From a virus: a stretch of DNA of 64,000 bases. The stretch's first letter is position 1, and each line of letters opens with the position of its first letter. Below are positions 38,739-43,215 of the stretch, in pieces. Position numbers and translations under genes: made by a program. The stretch covers positions 1 to 64,000 of the IMG/VR virus record IMGVR_UViG_3300024999_000044; one strand, 5' to 3'. A model generated the notes under the pieces. That model ran no database searches. It saw nothing but the letters and a program-made list of their open reading frames with translations, and had not been told where the DNA came from.

Positions 38739-39122
38739 TTACTCCGCAGTAACTCCACTAGCCTTAAGGGCCATGATAACACGCATTCGCAGGATAGCCT
38801 CATGGTCACTGAACTCATACTCTACGGAGTGTTCACTAGCCATCACCATTAGCTGCTCTATGCTATACACCTTCCACCCGCTAGCCTTTTTAGCCTTACT
38901 TGGTGCCTTGGGAAAGTGTAGGTAAAGAATCTCCATGCACATTCTCATACGGTTAATAGCTGGGTTTTCAATACAGGGCTTATGTGTTAGGCCCTCTAAG
39001 GCTAACCACTCCATTAGTTGCTCATCAGACAGCTTCTTATATACCTTCTTGAGATCCCTATCTACCTTGAATGTCCCTACCTCAGGATACACAGGTGCTA
39101 CCACTACAGTTTTCTTAGCCAT
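38739..39122 (-). CDS. paralog family member A (unknown function)
   Basis: MAKKTVVVAPVYPEVGTFKVDRDLKKVYKKLSDEQLMEWLALEGL…AINRMRMCMEILYLHFPKAPSKAKKASGWK…SDHEAILRMRVIMALKASGVTAE. Confidence 0.6.
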   Translation of the reverse strand: MAKKTVVVAPVYPEVGTFKVDRDLKKVYKKLSDEQLMEWLALEGLTHKPCIENPAINRMRMCMEILYLHFPKAPSKAKKASGWKVYSIEQLMVMASEHSVEYEFSDHEAILRMRVIMALKASGVTAE

Positions 39123-39192
39123 TATACATACCTCCCATATCTAGCAGTAAGGATCTCCTAGCTACGGGCCAGTGTCCCCTGCTGATGTTTTT

Positions 39193-39221
39193 ATTTTACC
39201 ACGGAACAGAGAAAAAGTCAA
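39193..39221 (-). promoter_or_regulatory. sigma-A-type promoter, family copy, minus strand
   Basis: Reverse complement reads GGTACTTGACTTTTTCTCTGTTCCGTGGTAAAAT. Confidence 0.6.
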
Positions 39222-39340
39222 GTACCAACAGGGTCCTGATGTATGGCAGGGCGGGATAGGTGTTCTAGCTAGGCGGAGGCTTCAATTAATAAAGGTATGC
39301 ATGTAGCTAGGTGGGGACTACCAATATGGTCGCTAGACAG

Positions 39341-39369
39341 GCTAGCTAGGCGGGGGCTTCATCTAATGG
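39341..39369. repeat. promoter-upstream repeat GCTAGCTAGGCGGGGGCTTCATCTAATGG, which contains the 12-bp palindrome GCCTAGCTAGGC
   Basis: A second copy at 39265-39290 and a degenerate one at about 39304. Confidence 0.6.
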
Positions 39370-39430
39370 AGCATGCGGGTGTTCATCTATAGAACATAAC
39401 TAGGAACATCCTACCTGTAAAAGTGCATAA

Positions 39431-39460
39431 AGAAAGGGTGGCGTTAGCCACCCTGGATGT
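39431..39460 (-). terminator. rho-independent terminator, minus strand
   Basis: Reverse complement reads GGGTGGC-taac-GCCACCC followed by TTTCTTTAT. Confidence 0.55.
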
Positions 39461-39461
39461 A

Positions 39462-39827
39462 TTACAACCAATTTATTAATCCACCTTCCACACACTGTTG
39501 TACCACGTGATTAAATGTGTCCTCATCTATCTTAGAGCTAGTGGTAAAGGGTGTATCATAGTAGAATACTGGACACTTATCCTCATCGAGGGTGCATGTC
39601 CATGTGGATATCTCCGGGTCATAATCATCTATATCACCATCTGGTCCATCTGTAGGGGTCTGTTCGATGATACACCAATGTGTAGCTATCTGGAACTCAT
39701 CATCACCATACTCATTCTCATCAACCAACTTAACCTTATCTGCAGGGTGAATAGGCACAACCACGTGTTTATGATAGATATTCTCGTCAGATGCCTGTAG
39801 GTCACGGATGATGTCGTACTTAGTCAT
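39462..39827 (-). CDS. acidic hypothetical protein
   Basis: Start at MTKYDIIRDL with AGGAGGTATGAGTATATG, inside track ORF 39462-39962. Confidence 0.5.
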   Translation of the reverse strand: MTKYDIIRDLQASDENIYHKHVVVPIHPADKVKLVDENEYGDDEFQIATHWCIIEQTPTDGPDGDIDDYDPEISTWTCTLDEDKCPVFYYDTPFTTSSKIDEDTFNHVVQQCVEGGLINWL

Positions 39828-39879
39828 ATACTCATACCTCCTATATCTAGCAGAGGATCTACACCACCCCATGTACACA

Positions 39880-40356
39880 CTAGATATTACTGGAGTAGTC
39901 ACGATCCTGTAATATACTGAACCAGGTATCCTCACTAGGCCATTCACGCCACCCATCCTCAATATCTATCACCGTATCAATATCACCCAGCCACTCTAAT
40001 GCCCTACCCACACATACATCCTGTAGCATTGGCCCCCCTCCAAATACCTCATCAATACCCTCTGTATCTAGGCATTCTAGAGTATTATCCTCGTGTAATA
40101 TGGCGGGTAGCACCTGCCCCATGATATTACCAGTGTAGGTCTCTCCTGTCTCATCATCGTCTGTAGTCCACACTAAGTACAACTCATGTGTGTACCCATT
40201 CATAATGTAGTCATAGTCACGAGCGTGCTCACTACGGTCAGCCTTACGTACTGACATTGCTATCACCCTACCATTATCATCCCACCCTAGATTATCGAAG
40301 AATGTGTTCACTACTGTAGCTACCTCACCCACACTACTATACTTACTCATACTCAT
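39880..40356 (-). CDS. acidic hypothetical protein
   Basis: Track ORF; AGGAGG RBS. Confidence 0.5.
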   Translation of the reverse strand: MSMSKYSSVGEVATVVNTFFDNLGWDDNGRVIAMSVRKADRSEHARDYDYIMNGYTHELYLVWTTDDDETGETYTGNIMGQVLPAILHEDNTLECLDTEGIDEVFGGGPMLQDVCVGRALEWLGDIDTVIDIEDGWREWPSEDTWFSILQDRDYSSNI

Positions 40357-40415
40357 ACCTCCTATATTCTAGCCAGGGTATCTACCCACCAGAGTAGCTC
40401 CTCAACCGATGATTA

Positions 40416-40444
40416 ATTATATCACGGATCAGAGAAAAAGTCAA
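40416..40444 (-). promoter_or_regulatory. sigma-A-type promoter, family copy, minus strand
   Basis: Reverse complement reads GTGTACTTGACTTTTTCTCTGATCCGTGATATAAT. Confidence 0.7.
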
Positions 40445-40486
40445 GTACACCCACCCCCCCGCCCTAGCCCACCGGACGCTACGCGC

Positions 40487-40515
40487 CCTAGCTAGGCAGA
40501 GGCTTCATCTAATGC
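40487..40515. repeat. promoter-upstream repeat CCCTAGCTAGGCAGAGGCTTCATCTAATG
   Basis: It shares an extended stretch of about 50 nt (ACCGGACGCTACGCGYCCTA…) with the copy at 42501-42548. Confidence 0.6.
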
Positions 40516-40565
40516 ACTAGGAAATGGGCACAAAAATAGGGAGTGCTTACACACCCCCACGTTAT

Positions 40566-41626: not shown

Positions 41627-41740
41627 ACATACCTCCTATATATTTTTTGATACCCCTCACATATTCAGTTGTCACAGACCACCGGGCTAGGTACGAGTCA
41701 CCCGGCACCCTCGGTACCGCTCTCCCTCAACCCTGAAATA

Positions 41741-41769
41741 ATTATATCACGGAACAGGGAAAAAGTCAA
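41741..41769 (-). promoter_or_regulatory. sigma-A-type promoter, family copy, minus strand
   Basis: Reverse complement reads GGTACTTGACTTTTTCCCTGTTCCGTGATATAAT. Confidence 0.7.
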
Positions 41770-41811
41770 GTACCAGTAGGGTCCTGGCATATGGCAGACA
41801 CGGGTAGGTGT

Positions 41812-41890
41812 GATACCTAGGCGGGGCCTTCATCTAATGGGAATGTGCAGGGTGATATGTGGTGTAGCTAGGTGGAGGCTTCATCTAATG
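41812..41890. repeat. two promoter-upstream repeats: GATACCTAGGCGGGGCCTTCATCTAATGG and GTGTAGCTAGGTGGAGGCTTCATCTAATGG
   Basis: Read directly. Confidence 0.6.
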
Positions 41891-41952
41891 GCCCGTTAAC
41901 GGGCATAAGAAAAGGGAGGCTCACGCCTCCCCAACATTAACACCATTGACCG

Positions 41953-42156
41953 CTACCACCCTGCCCCATCGAAGTATTGCTTCCAGTGGCTATACCCACC
42001 ACGTATATCACACTCAAGCATCTCTATGTCCCACCCACCATCCGCTAGCCAGCTCCAATCTGCGTAGACAACTTTACCAGTCACCTGTGTTCCTTGGGCT
42101 TCTATAGTCACTGTGTCACCCTCATTCACTACTGTACCCTTTTTGTCCTTTGCCAT
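41953..42156 (-). CDS. hypothetical small protein
   Basis: Track ORF. Confidence 0.45.
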   Translation of the reverse strand: MAKDKKGTVVNEGDTVTIEAQGTQVTGKVVYADWSWLADGGWDIEMLECDIRGGYSHWKQYFDGAGW

Positions 42157-42201
42157 ATAATAACCTCCTCCAAAAGTAGGGGGCCGTAGCCCCCTGTACC
42201 C

Positions 42202-42378
42202 CTAGTCCTCGTTGTCAACCTTGTCCACACCAAAGCACCCAACACTAGCTAATGCTTCGTTGAACTCGTACCCTAGCTCGTTCAAGTACCCGTTCAGTTG
42301 CTCAGCTTGGTTGAAGTCGTTTAGACGTGCCACTAACTCCTGCAGTACCTTTAGAGTTTCACTGGTTGTTTCAAGCAT
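42202..42378 (-). CDS. small protein, 58 aa, missing from the track
   Basis: MLETTSETLKVLQELVARLNDFNQAEQLNGYLNELGYEF…; AAGGAGG RBS. Confidence 0.35.
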   Translation of the reverse strand: MLETTSETLKVLQELVARLNDFNQAEQLNGYLNELGYEFNEALASVGCFGVDKVDNED

Positions 42379-42445
42379 CGTACGTACCTCCTTGCCTAGC
42401 TAGGGTGGTCTCCACCGCTCTCGTGTGCCCCCTGCTGACACTCTA

Positions 42446-42474
42446 AGTTTCTCACGAAACAGAGAAAAAGTCAA
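42446..42474 (-). promoter_or_regulatory. sigma-A-type promoter, family copy, weak -10 GAAACT
   Basis: Reverse complement reads CCGTACTTGACTTTTTCTCTGTTTCGTGAGAAACT. Confidence 0.5.
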
Positions 42475-42516
42475 GTACGGTTACGGGTGTGCGCTAGCCT
42501 ACCGGACGCTACGCGT

Positions 42517-42548
42517 CCTACCTAGGCGGGGGGCTTCATCTTTAGTGG
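42517..42548. repeat. promoter-upstream repeat CCTACCTAGGCGGGGGGCTTCATCTTTAGTGG
   Basis: Read directly. Confidence 0.55.
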
Positions 42549-42720
42549 ACACACCAATGGACATAGAAAAGGCCCACCCTCAGGTGGACCTACTCATGTA
42601 TTTACGCACATTATGCACCACTATATTCACTAACACACCTGCTAGGAAGCACTGTAACAATGCCATATGCACTCACTCCTTCATTTAAGTAGTAGGGGCC
42701 CGTAGGCCCCCTACTCATAT

Positions 42721-43113
42721 TTACTCTGCCACATACCCGGTAGCCTTGATAGCCATGATCACTCTCATCCGCAAGATGGCCTCATGGTCACTGAAGTCAT
42801 ATACGGCGTTCCGCTCGGTAGCGATCATCAGCAGGTCCTCAATAGTGAACTGTTTCCAGCCAGCAGCTTTCTTAGACTTACTAGGGGCCTTAGGAAAGTG
42901 TAGGTACAATATAGCCATGCACATCCTCATTCTATTGATGGCTAGGTTGTCGTCACAAGGATTCCAGGTAAGGCCTTCTAGCTTAATCCATTCCCGTAAC
43001 TGATCATCAGATAGCTTCTTATATACCTTCTTTAGGTCCTTATCTATCTTGAATGTCCCTACTTCAGGGTACACCACTGCTGATACCTTGACCACTGGTT
43101 GTTTCTTTGCCAT
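42721..43113 (-). CDS. paralog family member C
   Basis: Start at MAKKQPVVKVSAVVYPEVGTFKIDKDL…, preceded by GCAGGAGGTATGGGTATATG. Confidence 0.6.
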   Translation of the reverse strand: MAKKQPVVKVSAVVYPEVGTFKIDKDLKKVYKKLSDDQLREWIKLEGLTWNPCDDNLAINRMRMCMAILYLHFPKAPSKSKKAAGWKQFTIEDLLMIATERNAVYDFSDHEAILRMRVIMAIKATGYVAE

Positions 43114-43186
43114 ATACCCATACCTCCTGCATCTAGCACCGGGATCTCCAGCACCCGTCTGGTGTGTGTCCCCTGCTGATGTTATT

Positions 43187-43215
43187 ATTATATCACGGAC
43201 ATAGGAATAAGTCAA
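43187..43215 (-). promoter_or_regulatory. sigma-A-type promoter, family copy, minus strand
   Basis: Reverse complement reads TGTACTTGACTTATTCCTATGTCCGTGATATAAT. Confidence 0.7.

What the first reader, a model, noticed from the sequence alone, without database searches (positions are those of the whole stretch)
38739..43215. Paralogous gene family on the minus strand (plus a plus-strand copy at 22175), each copy with its own promoter
Three minus-strand genes (38739-39122, 41222-41626, 42721-43113) and the C-terminus of plus-strand 22175-22912 encode the same roughly 120-aa domain (VYPEVGTFKVDKDLKKVYKKLSDEQL-EW--LEG … AINRMRMCM-ILYLHFPKAPSKAKK--GWK … SDHEAILRMRVIMA-KA-G). Each minus-strand copy sits directly downstream of its own consensus promoter and an almost identical leader (GGAGATCC..TGCTAGAT..AGGAGGTATG.GTATATG). 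Copies are interleaved with unrelated small acidic or Cys-rich genes. Repeated, independently transcribed paralogs in an early region suggest dosage or specificity diversification of a host-interacting protein.
Basis: seen in the sequence. Interest (0 to 1): 0.65.

Follow-up and report, generated by a model that had tools for sequence, protein, structure and literature searches.

The report
Triplicated SPO1 gp51-type host-takeover genes
Three diverged copies of the SPO1 gp51 gene, plus an ortholog of the RNA-polymerase inhibitor Gp44 that ends in the same domain, sit in the early host-takeover region of an uncultured SPO1-like phage; the family is already known, and what is new here is its copy number.

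Summary
Three minus-strand genes are 71-77% identical to each other (E=2e-63) and 41% identical (E=2e-24) to the C-terminus of the plus-strand 245-aa protein.

The family is already known: Pfam PF26856 "Phage_SPO1_gp51" and PHROG 9647. The window is an uncultured SPO1-like (Herelleviridae) phage. The three small genes are gp51 homologs. The 245-aa protein is the ortholog of SPO1 Gp44/E3, an RNA-polymerase-binding DNA mimic.

All four lie in a convergent, SPO1-style host-takeover module of short operons. Each has its own near-consensus extended -10 promoter. The "identical leader" holds for only two of the three copies and is also found on an unrelated operon.

The copies are old and individually conserved (dN/dS about 0.1; 1:1:1 orthologs at 90-91% in a related phage). 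This favours divergence of function over dosage.

AlphaFold predicts a confidently folded helical domain made of two homologous helix-loop-helix repeats. Published NMR work called this region of Gp44 unstructured.

A side finding is a 23-nt element phased 64 nt upstream of the leftward early promoters.

Verdict: new member of a known kind, moderate-to-low interest.

The parts
42721..43113 (-). Copy c3, gp51-type protein, 130 aa (ATG at 43113)
   Evidence: ORF. PHROG 9647 E=3e-40. 47% identical to SPO1 gp51. Gene called as 130 aa with PF26856 on the source contig. AF2 pLDDT 82.9.
41222..41626 (-). Copy c2, gp51-type protein, 134 aa
   Evidence: ORF. PHROG 9647 E=1.6e-37. Exact match to database protein P0002, which carries PF26856.
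38739..39122 (-). Copy c1, gp51-type protein, 127 aa
   Evidence: ORF. PHROG 9647 E=6.5e-41. Exact match to P0004, which carries PF26856.
22175..22912 (+). Gp44/E3 ortholog, 245 aa: Xis-like N-domain (res 1-45), acidic disordered linker (about res 46-125), gp51-type C-domain (res about 129-245; nt about 22559-22912)
   Evidence: Full-length match to PHROG 12391, E=2.8e-54. N-terminus matches PDB 6l6v (SPO1 E3 residues 1-55), E=4.9e-4. Linker has 29 D/E and no K/R in 60 residues. AF2 pLDDT: N-domain 81-91, linker about 43, C-domain 91-97.
43187..43215 (-). Early promoter P1 driving c3 (TTGACT-17-TATAAT, TG-extended)
41741..41769 (-). Early promoter P3 driving the c2 operon (c2, then 85-aa and 104-aa genes)
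39193..39221 (-). Early promoter P5 driving the c1 operon (c1, then a 90-aa gene)
22085..22113 (+). Early promoter of the gp44-like operon
43114..43180 (-). c3 leader with 5' stem-loop (AUCAGCAGGGGACAC...GCUAGAU) and AGGAGG SD
   Evidence: Alignment. Fold: -19.5 kcal/mol, but z=0, so the structure is not statistically supported.
39123..39186 (-). c1 leader, same type as the c3 leader
41627..41734 (-). c2 leader, about 110 nt, unrelated in sequence to the c1 and c3 leaders
   Evidence: z=-1.7.
42570..42591 (-). Intrinsic terminator ending the c3 operon
40539..40558 (-). Intrinsic terminator ending the c2 operon
42580..42666 (-). 28-aa hydrophobic mini-ORF (MALLQCFLAGVLVNIVVHNVRKYMSRST) after c3; possible analogue of SPO1 gp50
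   Evidence: strong SD, hydrophobic like the 23-aa gp50, followed by a terminator. It is absent downstream of the c3 ortholog in the related phage, so this is weak.
42691..42715 (-). GC-rich hairpin without a T-run directly after the c3 stop codon. Similar hairpins follow c2 (41195-41210) and c1 (38705-38731).
   Evidence: z=-3.2, -1.8, -1.6.
39266..43334 (-). Eight copies of the 23-nt element TAGATGAAGCCnCCGCCTAGCTA upstream of leftward promoters P1-P5: 43312-43334, about 43261-43283, about 42519-42541, 41865-41887, 41814-41836, 40489-40511, 39343-39365, 39266-39288. A ninth copy lies at about 35113-35135.
   Evidence: 6 matches at up to 3 mismatches vs 0.01 expected. The core starts 64-65 nt upstream of the -35. 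Conserved at the same spacing in a related phage.

Best explanation
These genes are the gp51/Gp44 family of the SPO1-type host-takeover module.

What is shown:
- The phage carries one Gp44/E3 ortholog (Xis-like DNA-binding N-domain, acidic DNA-mimic linker, C-terminal gp51 domain) in the rightward early arm.
- It carries three stand-alone gp51-type proteins in the leftward early arm.
- Each has its own strong host-sigma-A-type promoter.
- The shared domain of about 115 aa is predicted to be a folded helical module built from two homologous helix-loop-helix repeats joined by a basic linker.
- It is the most conserved part of the whole family.
- The three copies are old, each under purifying selection, and each has its own ortholog in a related phage.

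What is inferred:
- The domain is the target-docking part of the family.
- In Gp44 it helps hold the acidic DNA mimic on host RNA polymerase (beta/beta').
- The stand-alone copies bind the same or a neighbouring surface of the transcription machinery.
- Together with Gp44, they throttle sigma-A-dependent transcription of host and phage early genes, which allows the early-to-middle switch.
- The three copies have diverged in function or target preference rather than serving dosage. Their differences cluster in the N-terminal tail and in the loop of repeat 1.
For: Homology:
- PHROG 9647, 12391 and 13880.
- tblastn hits found only in SPO1-like Herelleviridae, including SPO1 gp51 and the e3 protein.
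- PF26856 'Phage_SPO1_gp51' recorded on the exact proteins.
- PDB 6l6v (Gp44 N-domain) matches residues 3-41 of the 245-aa protein.

Synteny and architecture:
- Convergent rightward and leftward early operons with gp44 on one arm and gp51 on the other, as in SPO1.

Function of the homologs:
- Gp44 binds RNAP beta/beta' and inhibits transcription. Deleting its C-terminus weakens both the inhibition and the two-hybrid signal (PMC8208478).
- gp44, gp50 and gp51 are needed for the early-to-middle transition and for host shutoff (Sampath & Stewart 2004, as cited).
- gp51 is listed under 'transcription inhibition'.

Fold:
- pLDDT 82.9 for c3 and 91-97 for the Gp44-like C-domain.
- Internal repeat: hhalign probability 97.4%, E=1e-11.
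- All 18 invariant columns of the gp44-type alignment fall in this domain.

Selection and orthology:
- dN/dS 0.07-0.12.
- 90-91% identity to positional orthologs vs 68-80% to paralogs.
- Same three-gene order in the related phage, with different cargo between the copies.
Against: - No experiment exists on any stand-alone gp51 protein. In one study, individually expressed gp51 was not among the growth-attenuating SPO1 genes, although gp50/51 together reduce viability.
- Published 1D NMR reports the Gp44 C-terminus as lacking a folded domain. The AF2 confidence could therefore reflect folding only on binding.
- RNAP contact was mapped to the acidic linker, not to this domain.
- The fold resembles DNA-binding SAP/HeH motifs, which fits a DNA target as well as a protein target.
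Confidence: 0.6

Rival explanations
1. The gp51 domain is a sequence-specific DNA-binding module: two non-identical HeH/SAP-like repeats plus a basic linker. It recognises the bipartite 23-nt element (ATGAAGCC-N4-CCTAGCTA) phased 64 nt upstream of the leftward early promoters. The three copies and the Gp44 C-domain would then be autoregulators that switch these promoters off (or on) directly at the DNA.
For: - The two repeats are homologous but distinct, which fits a site with two different halves.
- The linker is basic (KAPSKSKKAAGWK, pI 10.5) and the proteins have pI 8.5-9.3.
- The element is highly non-random and strictly phased.
- It is conserved in a relative. Similar elements occur in CP-51-type and Exiguobacterium phages, which have two gp51 copies, but were not found in SPO1, which has one.
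- SPO1 genetics link gp44/50/51 to shutoff of early genes.
Against: - No sequence-level match to SAP or HeH families, and Foldseek finds no significant PDB match.
- The element is absent from the rightward early promoters of this window, including the one driving the gp44-like gene.
- The link between copy number and element presence rests on four lineages.
- SPO1 gp51 is acidic (pI 5.8).
- The element could equally be bound by a host factor or by a TF1/HU-like phage protein.
Confidence: 0.12
2. The three copies are functionally equivalent and are kept only to raise the dose of one protein very early in infection, each copy adding one more strong promoter.
For: Each copy has its own strong promoter and ribosome-binding site. 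The core motifs are nearly identical among the copies.
Against: - dS is saturated (1.6-2.9) and amino-acid divergence is 23-29%.
- There is no sign of gene conversion.
- Each copy has its own ortholog at 90-91% in a related phage, in the same order.
- The copies head different operons with different downstream genes.
- Dosage alone would not preserve three distinct lineages.
Confidence: 0.1
3. The stand-alone copies are modulators of Gp44 rather than inhibitors in their own right. As 'C-domain only' versions, they compete with the Gp44 C-domain for its docking site, or pair with it. This would temper or time the toxicity of the DNA-mimic inhibitor.
For: - gp51-type proteins are exactly the Gp44 C-domain without the N-domain and acidic linker.
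- Across 215 family clusters the gp44-type architecture dominates and stand-alone forms are the minority. This suggests the stand-alone forms are derived.
- Toxin/antidote-like pairs are proposed elsewhere in the SPO1 module (Gp45/Gp46).
Against: - SPO1 genetics, as summarised, place gp44, gp50 and gp51 on the same side (all promote shutoff), not in opposition.
- The gp44-type and gp51-type domains form two deep clades with clade-specific motifs (RMY vs RMR in repeat 2). That is not expected for simple competitors.
Confidence: 0.1

Closest known systems
SPO1 gp51 (Pfam PF26856 Phage_SPO1_gp51; PHROG 9647)
   Same: Same length class (127-134 vs 131 aa), 47% identity, same conserved motifs (YPExG, xIxRMRxCMAIL, ILRMRxIMAL). 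Same position in the leftward arm of a convergent early host-takeover module, with its own sigma-A promoter.
   Different: Three diverged copies here instead of one. The copies are basic (pI 8.5-9.3), whereas SPO1 gp51 is acidic (pI 5.8). There is no overlapping gene-50 equivalent, only a non-conserved 28-aa mini-ORF after c3. The copies head operons with unrelated orphan genes.
SPO1 Gp44 / E3 protein (RNAP-binding DNA mimic; PDB 6l6v for residues 1-55; PHROG 12391)
   Same: The 245-aa plus-strand protein has the same three-part architecture: Xis-like N-domain, acidic disordered linker, gp51-type C-domain. It has its own early promoter in the rightward arm.
   Different: About 40-47% identity in the C-domain only. 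The linker differs in length and sequence. Here the gene heads a four-gene operon rather than standing alone. My prediction has the C-domain folded, whereas the paper calls it unstructured.
CP-51/JL/Shanette and Exiguobacterium vB_EalM-132 host-takeover modules
   Same: Multi-copy gp51 (two stand-alone copies plus one gp44-type), the same convergent layout, and a similar bipartite element upstream of the early promoters.
   Different: Their duplication is independent of the one in this lineage (tree). They have two copies, not three. The element's sequence and spacing differ (79-80 nt vs 64 nt).
SAP / LEM / HeH (helix-extension-helix) motifs, e.g. Ku70 SAP, emerin LEM, Rho N-terminal subdomain, T4 endonuclease VII C-domain
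   Different: No sequence-profile similarity and no significant whole-domain Foldseek hit. The tandem arrangement, with an extra N-terminal helix and the YPExG motif, has no solved counterpart.

Membership tests
Pfam PF26856 Phage_SPO1_gp51 / PHROG 9647 | Significant match to the family profile over the whole domain | tested here: met
   PHROG 9647 E=6.5e-41, 1.6e-37 and 3.3e-40 for c1-c3, and 5.9e-38 for the 245-aa protein. PF26856 is recorded on the exact proteins P0002, P0004 and P0054 and on the 130-aa gene of the source contig. The local Pfam copy lacks this model.
Pfam PF26856 Phage_SPO1_gp51 / PHROG 9647 | Direct homology to SPO1 gp51 | tested here: met
   tblastn 47% identity over 86% of c3, E=2e-15, on the annotated gene 51. 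SPO1 gp51 falls in the gp51-type clade together with c1-c3.
Pfam PF26856 Phage_SPO1_gp51 / PHROG 9647 | Location in an early host-takeover module with its own sigma-A-type promoter, convergent with the gp44 arm | tested here: met
   Promoters and terminators. SPO1 layout. Early timing itself is inferred from the promoter type, not measured.
Pfam PF26856 Phage_SPO1_gp51 / PHROG 9647 | Coupled small hydrophobic gene 50 downstream | tested here: inconclusive
   A 28-aa hydrophobic mini-ORF follows c3 only. It is absent after the ortholog in the related phage.
Pfam PF26856 Phage_SPO1_gp51 / PHROG 9647 | Role in shutoff of early and host transcription | not testable with these tools
   Known only from SPO1 genetics, as cited.
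SPO1 Gp44/E3 RNAP-inhibiting DNA mimic (applies to 22175-22912) | Xis-like N-terminal DNA-binding domain | tested here: met
   phmmer hit to PDB 6l6v chain A (E3 protein), E=4.9e-4, residues 3-41. AF2 predicts strand-strand-helix-helix-strand with pLDDT 81-91.
SPO1 Gp44/E3 RNAP-inhibiting DNA mimic (applies to 22175-22912) | Strongly acidic, disordered central region | tested here: met
   Residues 46-105 have 29 D/E and 0 K/R, pI 4.05. pLDDT about 43.
SPO1 Gp44/E3 RNAP-inhibiting DNA mimic (applies to 22175-22912) | C-terminal gp51-type domain | tested here: met
   Full-length match to PHROG 12391, E=2.8e-54. Groups with SPO1 gp44 C-domain in the tree.
SPO1 Gp44/E3 RNAP-inhibiting DNA mimic (applies to 22175-22912) | Binds RNAP beta/beta' and inhibits transcription | not testable with these tools
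   Shown for SPO1 Gp44 only (PMC8208478).
SAP/LEM/HeH fold | Helix-extended loop-helix unit of about 35-45 residues that superposes on solved members | tested here: inconclusive
SAP/LEM/HeH fold | Sequence-profile similarity to SAP, HeH, LEM or Rho_N families | tested here: not met
   No such Pfam family reaches E<1 in more than 3 of 53 members. Only sub-threshold Ish1 and Slx4 hints appear. The PDB profile search was empty.

The most novel reading that the evidence does not exclude
The gp51 domain, reported as 'unstructured' in Gp44, is actually a folded tandem helix-extension-helix DNA-binding module. Its cognate site would be the clade-wide bipartite element (ATGAAGC-N4-6-CTAnnTA) that sits at a fixed distance upstream of host-takeover promoters. 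Gp44 and the stand-alone gp51 paralogs would then form a promoter-targeted shutoff circuit. Gp44 would deliver its DNA mimic to RNA polymerase exactly at early promoters, rather than acting as a non-specific inhibitor. Paralog number would track the number of element-bearing promoters.
Probability: 0.12. Interest if true: 0.6.

Novelty: new member of a known kind. Interest (0 to 1): 0.3.

Why it matters
The gp44/gp51 family is essentially the only protein family shared between this phage's early module and SPO1's; of the 20 neighbouring genes scanned, 15 had no PHROG match at E≤0.01 and the rest only weak or uninformative ones. It is therefore probably the core of the SPO1-type takeover of host transcription.

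Three results give experimenters leads:
1. The stand-alone form has been expanded independently and stably in at least two lineages.
2. The shared domain is the most conserved part of the family.
3. The domain is predicted to be folded and internally duplicated.

These suggest that the 'C-terminal tail' of the Gp44 RNA-polymerase inhibitor deserves to be treated as the functional anchor. They also supply a set of natural variants (c1-c3 and their orthologs) for mapping its target. None of this changes the classification: it is a known family in its expected genomic setting.

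Tried and rejected
- **Local Pfam scan.** It found nothing for the four proteins or for 53 family members. The family model PF26856 is newer than the local copy; its name came from precomputed annotations.
- **DNA-level search.** Megablast of 38000-44000 against phage genomes found no match.
- **Fold searches.** Foldseek against the PDB gave nothing significant. 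The afdb50 library was unavailable. BFVD returned only family members plus weak Rho-N/LEM-like hits.
- **Profile search against PDB sequences.** Only noise.
- **Leader RNA structure.** c1, c3 and P2 share a 5' stem-loop, but the folding energies equal those of shuffled sequence (z about 0). I do not claim a structured RNA element. Rfam found only a tRNA.
- **gp50 analogue.** The mini-ORF after c3 is not conserved in the related phage, so I downgraded it.
- **The 23-nt element as an alternative-sigma promoter.** Rejected. The two conserved blocks are only about 4-6 nt apart, and the element occurs nowhere else in the 64-kb window.
- **B. subtilis Chi (AGCGG).** By inspection the window's copies read AGGCGG, so they do not match Chi; a Chi-site role was rejected.
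- **B. subtilis CcpA cre box.** Only the CP-51-type variant of the element was compared with the cre consensus, by inspection; it did not fit.
- **Primary papers.** Sampath & Stewart 2004, Stewart 1998 and Stewart 2009 are not held. Their content is cited only through PMC8208478 and PMC6873191.

Full report
**1. Observation**

The four ORFs exist as described.
- The three minus-strand proteins are c1 (38739-39122, 127 aa), c2 (41222-41626, 134 aa) and c3 (42721-43113, 130 aa).
- They are 71-77% identical to each other; c1 vs c2 gives E=2e-63.
- c3 aligns with residues 117-239 of the plus-strand 245-aa protein (22175-22912) at 41% identity, E=2e-24.
- The end coordinate 43215 in the finding is the -35 hexamer of the c3 promoter and the start of a spurious TTG-extended ORF. 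The true start is the ATG at 43113, as also called on the source contig.

**2. Identity**

- There is no close DNA relative among sequenced phages.
- At the protein level, hits occur only in SPO1-like Herelleviridae. The small genes match SPO1 gene 51. The 245-aa protein matches SPO1 gene 44, the 'e3 protein'.
- PHROGs places the small proteins in phrog_9647 (E about 1e-40). It places the 245-aa protein, over its full length, in phrog_12391 'transcriptional regulator' (E=2.8e-54).
- c1, c2 and the 245-aa protein are exact database entries (P0004, P0002, P0054) that carry Pfam PF26856, named 'Phage_SPO1_gp51'. They lie on a 141.8-kb ENA metagenome scaffold that matches the window.
- The N-terminus of the 245-aa protein matches the solved Gp44(1-55) domain, PDB 6l6v.
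- Its residues 46-105 contain 29 acidic and no basic residues.
- So the plus-strand gene is a full Gp44/E3 ortholog, not merely another copy.

**3. Genomic setting**

- The region from 20.9 to 43.2 kb is a SPO1-style host-takeover module.
- Rightward operons (promoters at 21343, 22085, 24389, 28106, 33995, 34181 and others) converge with seven leftward operons. The leftward promoters are at 43215, 42478, 41769, 40444, 39221, 38397 and 36755.
- Most operons end in an intrinsic terminator.
- The promoters are nearly identical: TACTTGACTTTTTC...CGTGATATAAT.
- gp44 lies on the rightward arm and gp51 on the leftward arm, as in SPO1.
- Most of the neighbouring genes are orphans in PHROGs. The leftward ones are mostly small and acidic, and some are Cys-rich.
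- The module is flanked by a helicase on one side and by lysis, terminase and ParB-like nuclease genes on the other. This is what a collapsed terminal redundancy would look like, but that is an inference.
- The leader CAGCAGGGGACAC...GCTAGAT is shared by c1, c3 and the unrelated P2 operon. c2 has a different, longer leader.
- The predicted 5' stem-loops are no more stable than shuffled sequence.

**4. Evolution**

- Among c1-c3, dN is about 0.2 while dS is saturated (1.6-2.9), so dN/dS is 0.07-0.12.
- The differences cluster in the N-terminal tail, the loop between helices 2 and 3, and part of repeat 2.
- A related phage (L018-L021) has the same three genes in the same order, but with different genes between them.
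- Each window copy is 90-91% identical to its positional ortholog and 68-80% identical to the paralogs.
- Copy number differs among lineages: SPO1 has 1 stand-alone copy plus gp44, CP-51-type and Exiguobacterium phages have 2 plus 1, and this lineage has 3 plus 1.
- A neighbour-joining tree separates a gp44-C-domain clade from a stand-alone clade. It also shows that the duplications in the CP-51 lineage and in this lineage are independent.
- An exhaustive profile search finds only 215 family clusters among 1.84 billion representatives. The domain is always C-terminal, and most members have the gp44-type architecture.

**5. Structure**

- With a 53-sequence alignment, AF2 predicts c3 as an all-helical domain: mean pLDDT 82.9, six helices, with only the first 11 residues disordered.
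- In the Gp44-like protein the same domain reaches pLDDT 91-97, while the acidic linker scores about 43.
- The two halves of the domain are homologous: hhalign probability 97.4%, E=1e-11. Each half ends in an xIxRMRxxMAI helix.
- However, Foldseek finds no significant PDB match, and sequence profiles do not connect the domain to those families.
- I therefore describe the fold as 'tandem HeH-like', and as suggestive only.
- The conservation pattern argues for a structured functional module: all 18 invariant columns of the gp44-type alignment fall in this domain.
- Folding only upon binding cannot be excluded.

**6. Mechanism**

What is shown for the SPO1 homologs:
- Gp44 binds RNAP beta/beta' through its acidic linker and inhibits transcription. 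Removing the C-terminus weakens both the inhibition and the interaction signal.
- gp44, gp50 and gp51 together are needed for the early-to-middle switch and for full host shutoff (cited).

My best explanation (confidence 0.6) is as follows:
- The shared domain is the docking module of the family.
- The three stand-alone copies are early-expressed modulators of sigma-A-dependent transcription.
- They act alongside the Gp44 ortholog.
- They have diverged in function rather than providing dosage.

Rivals:
- Sequence-specific DNA binding to the upstream element (0.12).
- Pure dosage (0.10).
- Modulators or competitors of Gp44 (0.10).

**7. Side finding**

- A 23-nt element, TAGATGAAGCCnCCGCCTAGCTA, occurs nine times, always on the minus strand.
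- Its core starts 64-65 nt upstream of the -35 of leftward promoters P1, P3, P4 and P5. A second copy lies at 115-116 or 141 nt upstream of P1, P3 and P5.
- It is conserved at the same spacing in the related phage.
- Similar bipartite elements sit upstream of early promoters in CP-51-type phages. There the spacing is 79-80 nt, and the absolute orientation is the same on both arms.
- In the Exiguobacterium phage, 12 similar copies lie in the intergenic gaps of the early module, several directly after annotated terminators.
- I found no such element in SPO1.
- Such strict phasing suggests a protein-binding site. Its binder is unknown.

**8. Verdict**

But the family is already catalogued, and the setting is the expected one. 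The new points are:
- the stable triplication;
- the predicted folded, internally duplicated domain;
- the promoter-phased element.

Novelty: new member of a known kind. Interest: 0.3.

Noticed in passing
window 39266-43334 (minus strand), plus about 35113-35135; L018 9780-14864; L009 9798-17607; L022 2601-9557: A 23-36-nt bipartite element (cATTAGATGAAGCCnCCGCCTAGCTA) lies strictly 64-65 nt (second copy 115-141 nt) upstream of the -35 of the leftward early promoters. It is conserved in a related phage. Divergent versions occur in CP-51-type and Exiguobacterium phages (in CP-51, one absolute orientation on both arms). I did not find it in SPO1. It is probably a protein-binding site; the binder is unknown.
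   Followed up: partly
window 25600-30200 (+), e.g. ORFs 26641-26853, 26831-27016, 28674-28937, 29672-30154: A second multi-copy family in the rightward early region: small Cys-rich proteins sharing a C-terminal CPLYGCPKH motif. At least 4 ORFs carry the motif, and about 7 matches to the nucleotide repeat are seen on the + strand.
   Followed up: partly
window 30141-30296: A tandem repeat of 52 nt x about 3, AT-rich, in a gap within the rightward early region. Its function is unknown.
   Followed up: no
window 47195-47404 (-): A 69-aa gene with a precomputed Pfam hit to Acb2_Tad1_hairpin (anti-CBASS/anti-Thoeris sponge family). The related phage carries a Tad2-like gene at a similar position.
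   Followed up: no
window 44499-44779 (-): The DUF4406 gene is split into two adjacent ORFs (49 and 44 aa), both with DUF4406 hits. In the related phage it is one intact 92-aa gene. Possible explanations are a frameshift, a pseudogene or an assembly error.
   Followed up: no
window 42430-42478 (-): Promoter P2 keeps the conserved -35, spacer and leader of the other early promoters, but has a degenerate -10 (GAGAAACT instead of GATATAAT).
   Followed up: no
window 42691-42715, 41195-41210, 38705-38731 (-): A GC-rich hairpin without a T-run follows the stop codon of each gp51 copy, just before the next SD. It resembles the intergenic hairpins flanked by (G)TTGCTAG in SPO1 and CP-51. From memory of the SP82 early-RNA literature, these could be RNase III processing sites; this was not tested.
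   Followed up: partly
window 43166-43180, 39172-39186; L001 7515-7534: The initial transcribed sequence AUCAG(C)AGGGGACAC is shared between early transcripts of this phage and one SPO1 early operon, despite the lack of overall DNA similarity.
   Followed up: no
window 42580-42666 (-): A 28-aa hydrophobic mini-ORF with a strong SD lies between c3 and its terminator. It is reminiscent of the 23-aa SPO1 gp50 but is not conserved in the related phage.
   Followed up: yes
window 1-20900 and 43500-64000: The early module is flanked by a helicase on one side and by amidase, terminase large subunit and ParB-like nuclease genes on the other. This is consistent with a terminal redundancy collapsed in the assembly. 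A single tRNA-Met lies at 3982-4056.
   Followed up: partly
window 23467-23853 (+): In the gp44-like operon, a 128-aa protein combines an N-terminal HTH (repressor-type PHROG hits) with a C-terminal Cys-rich segment (phrog_5768). It may be an early regulator.
   Followed up: no
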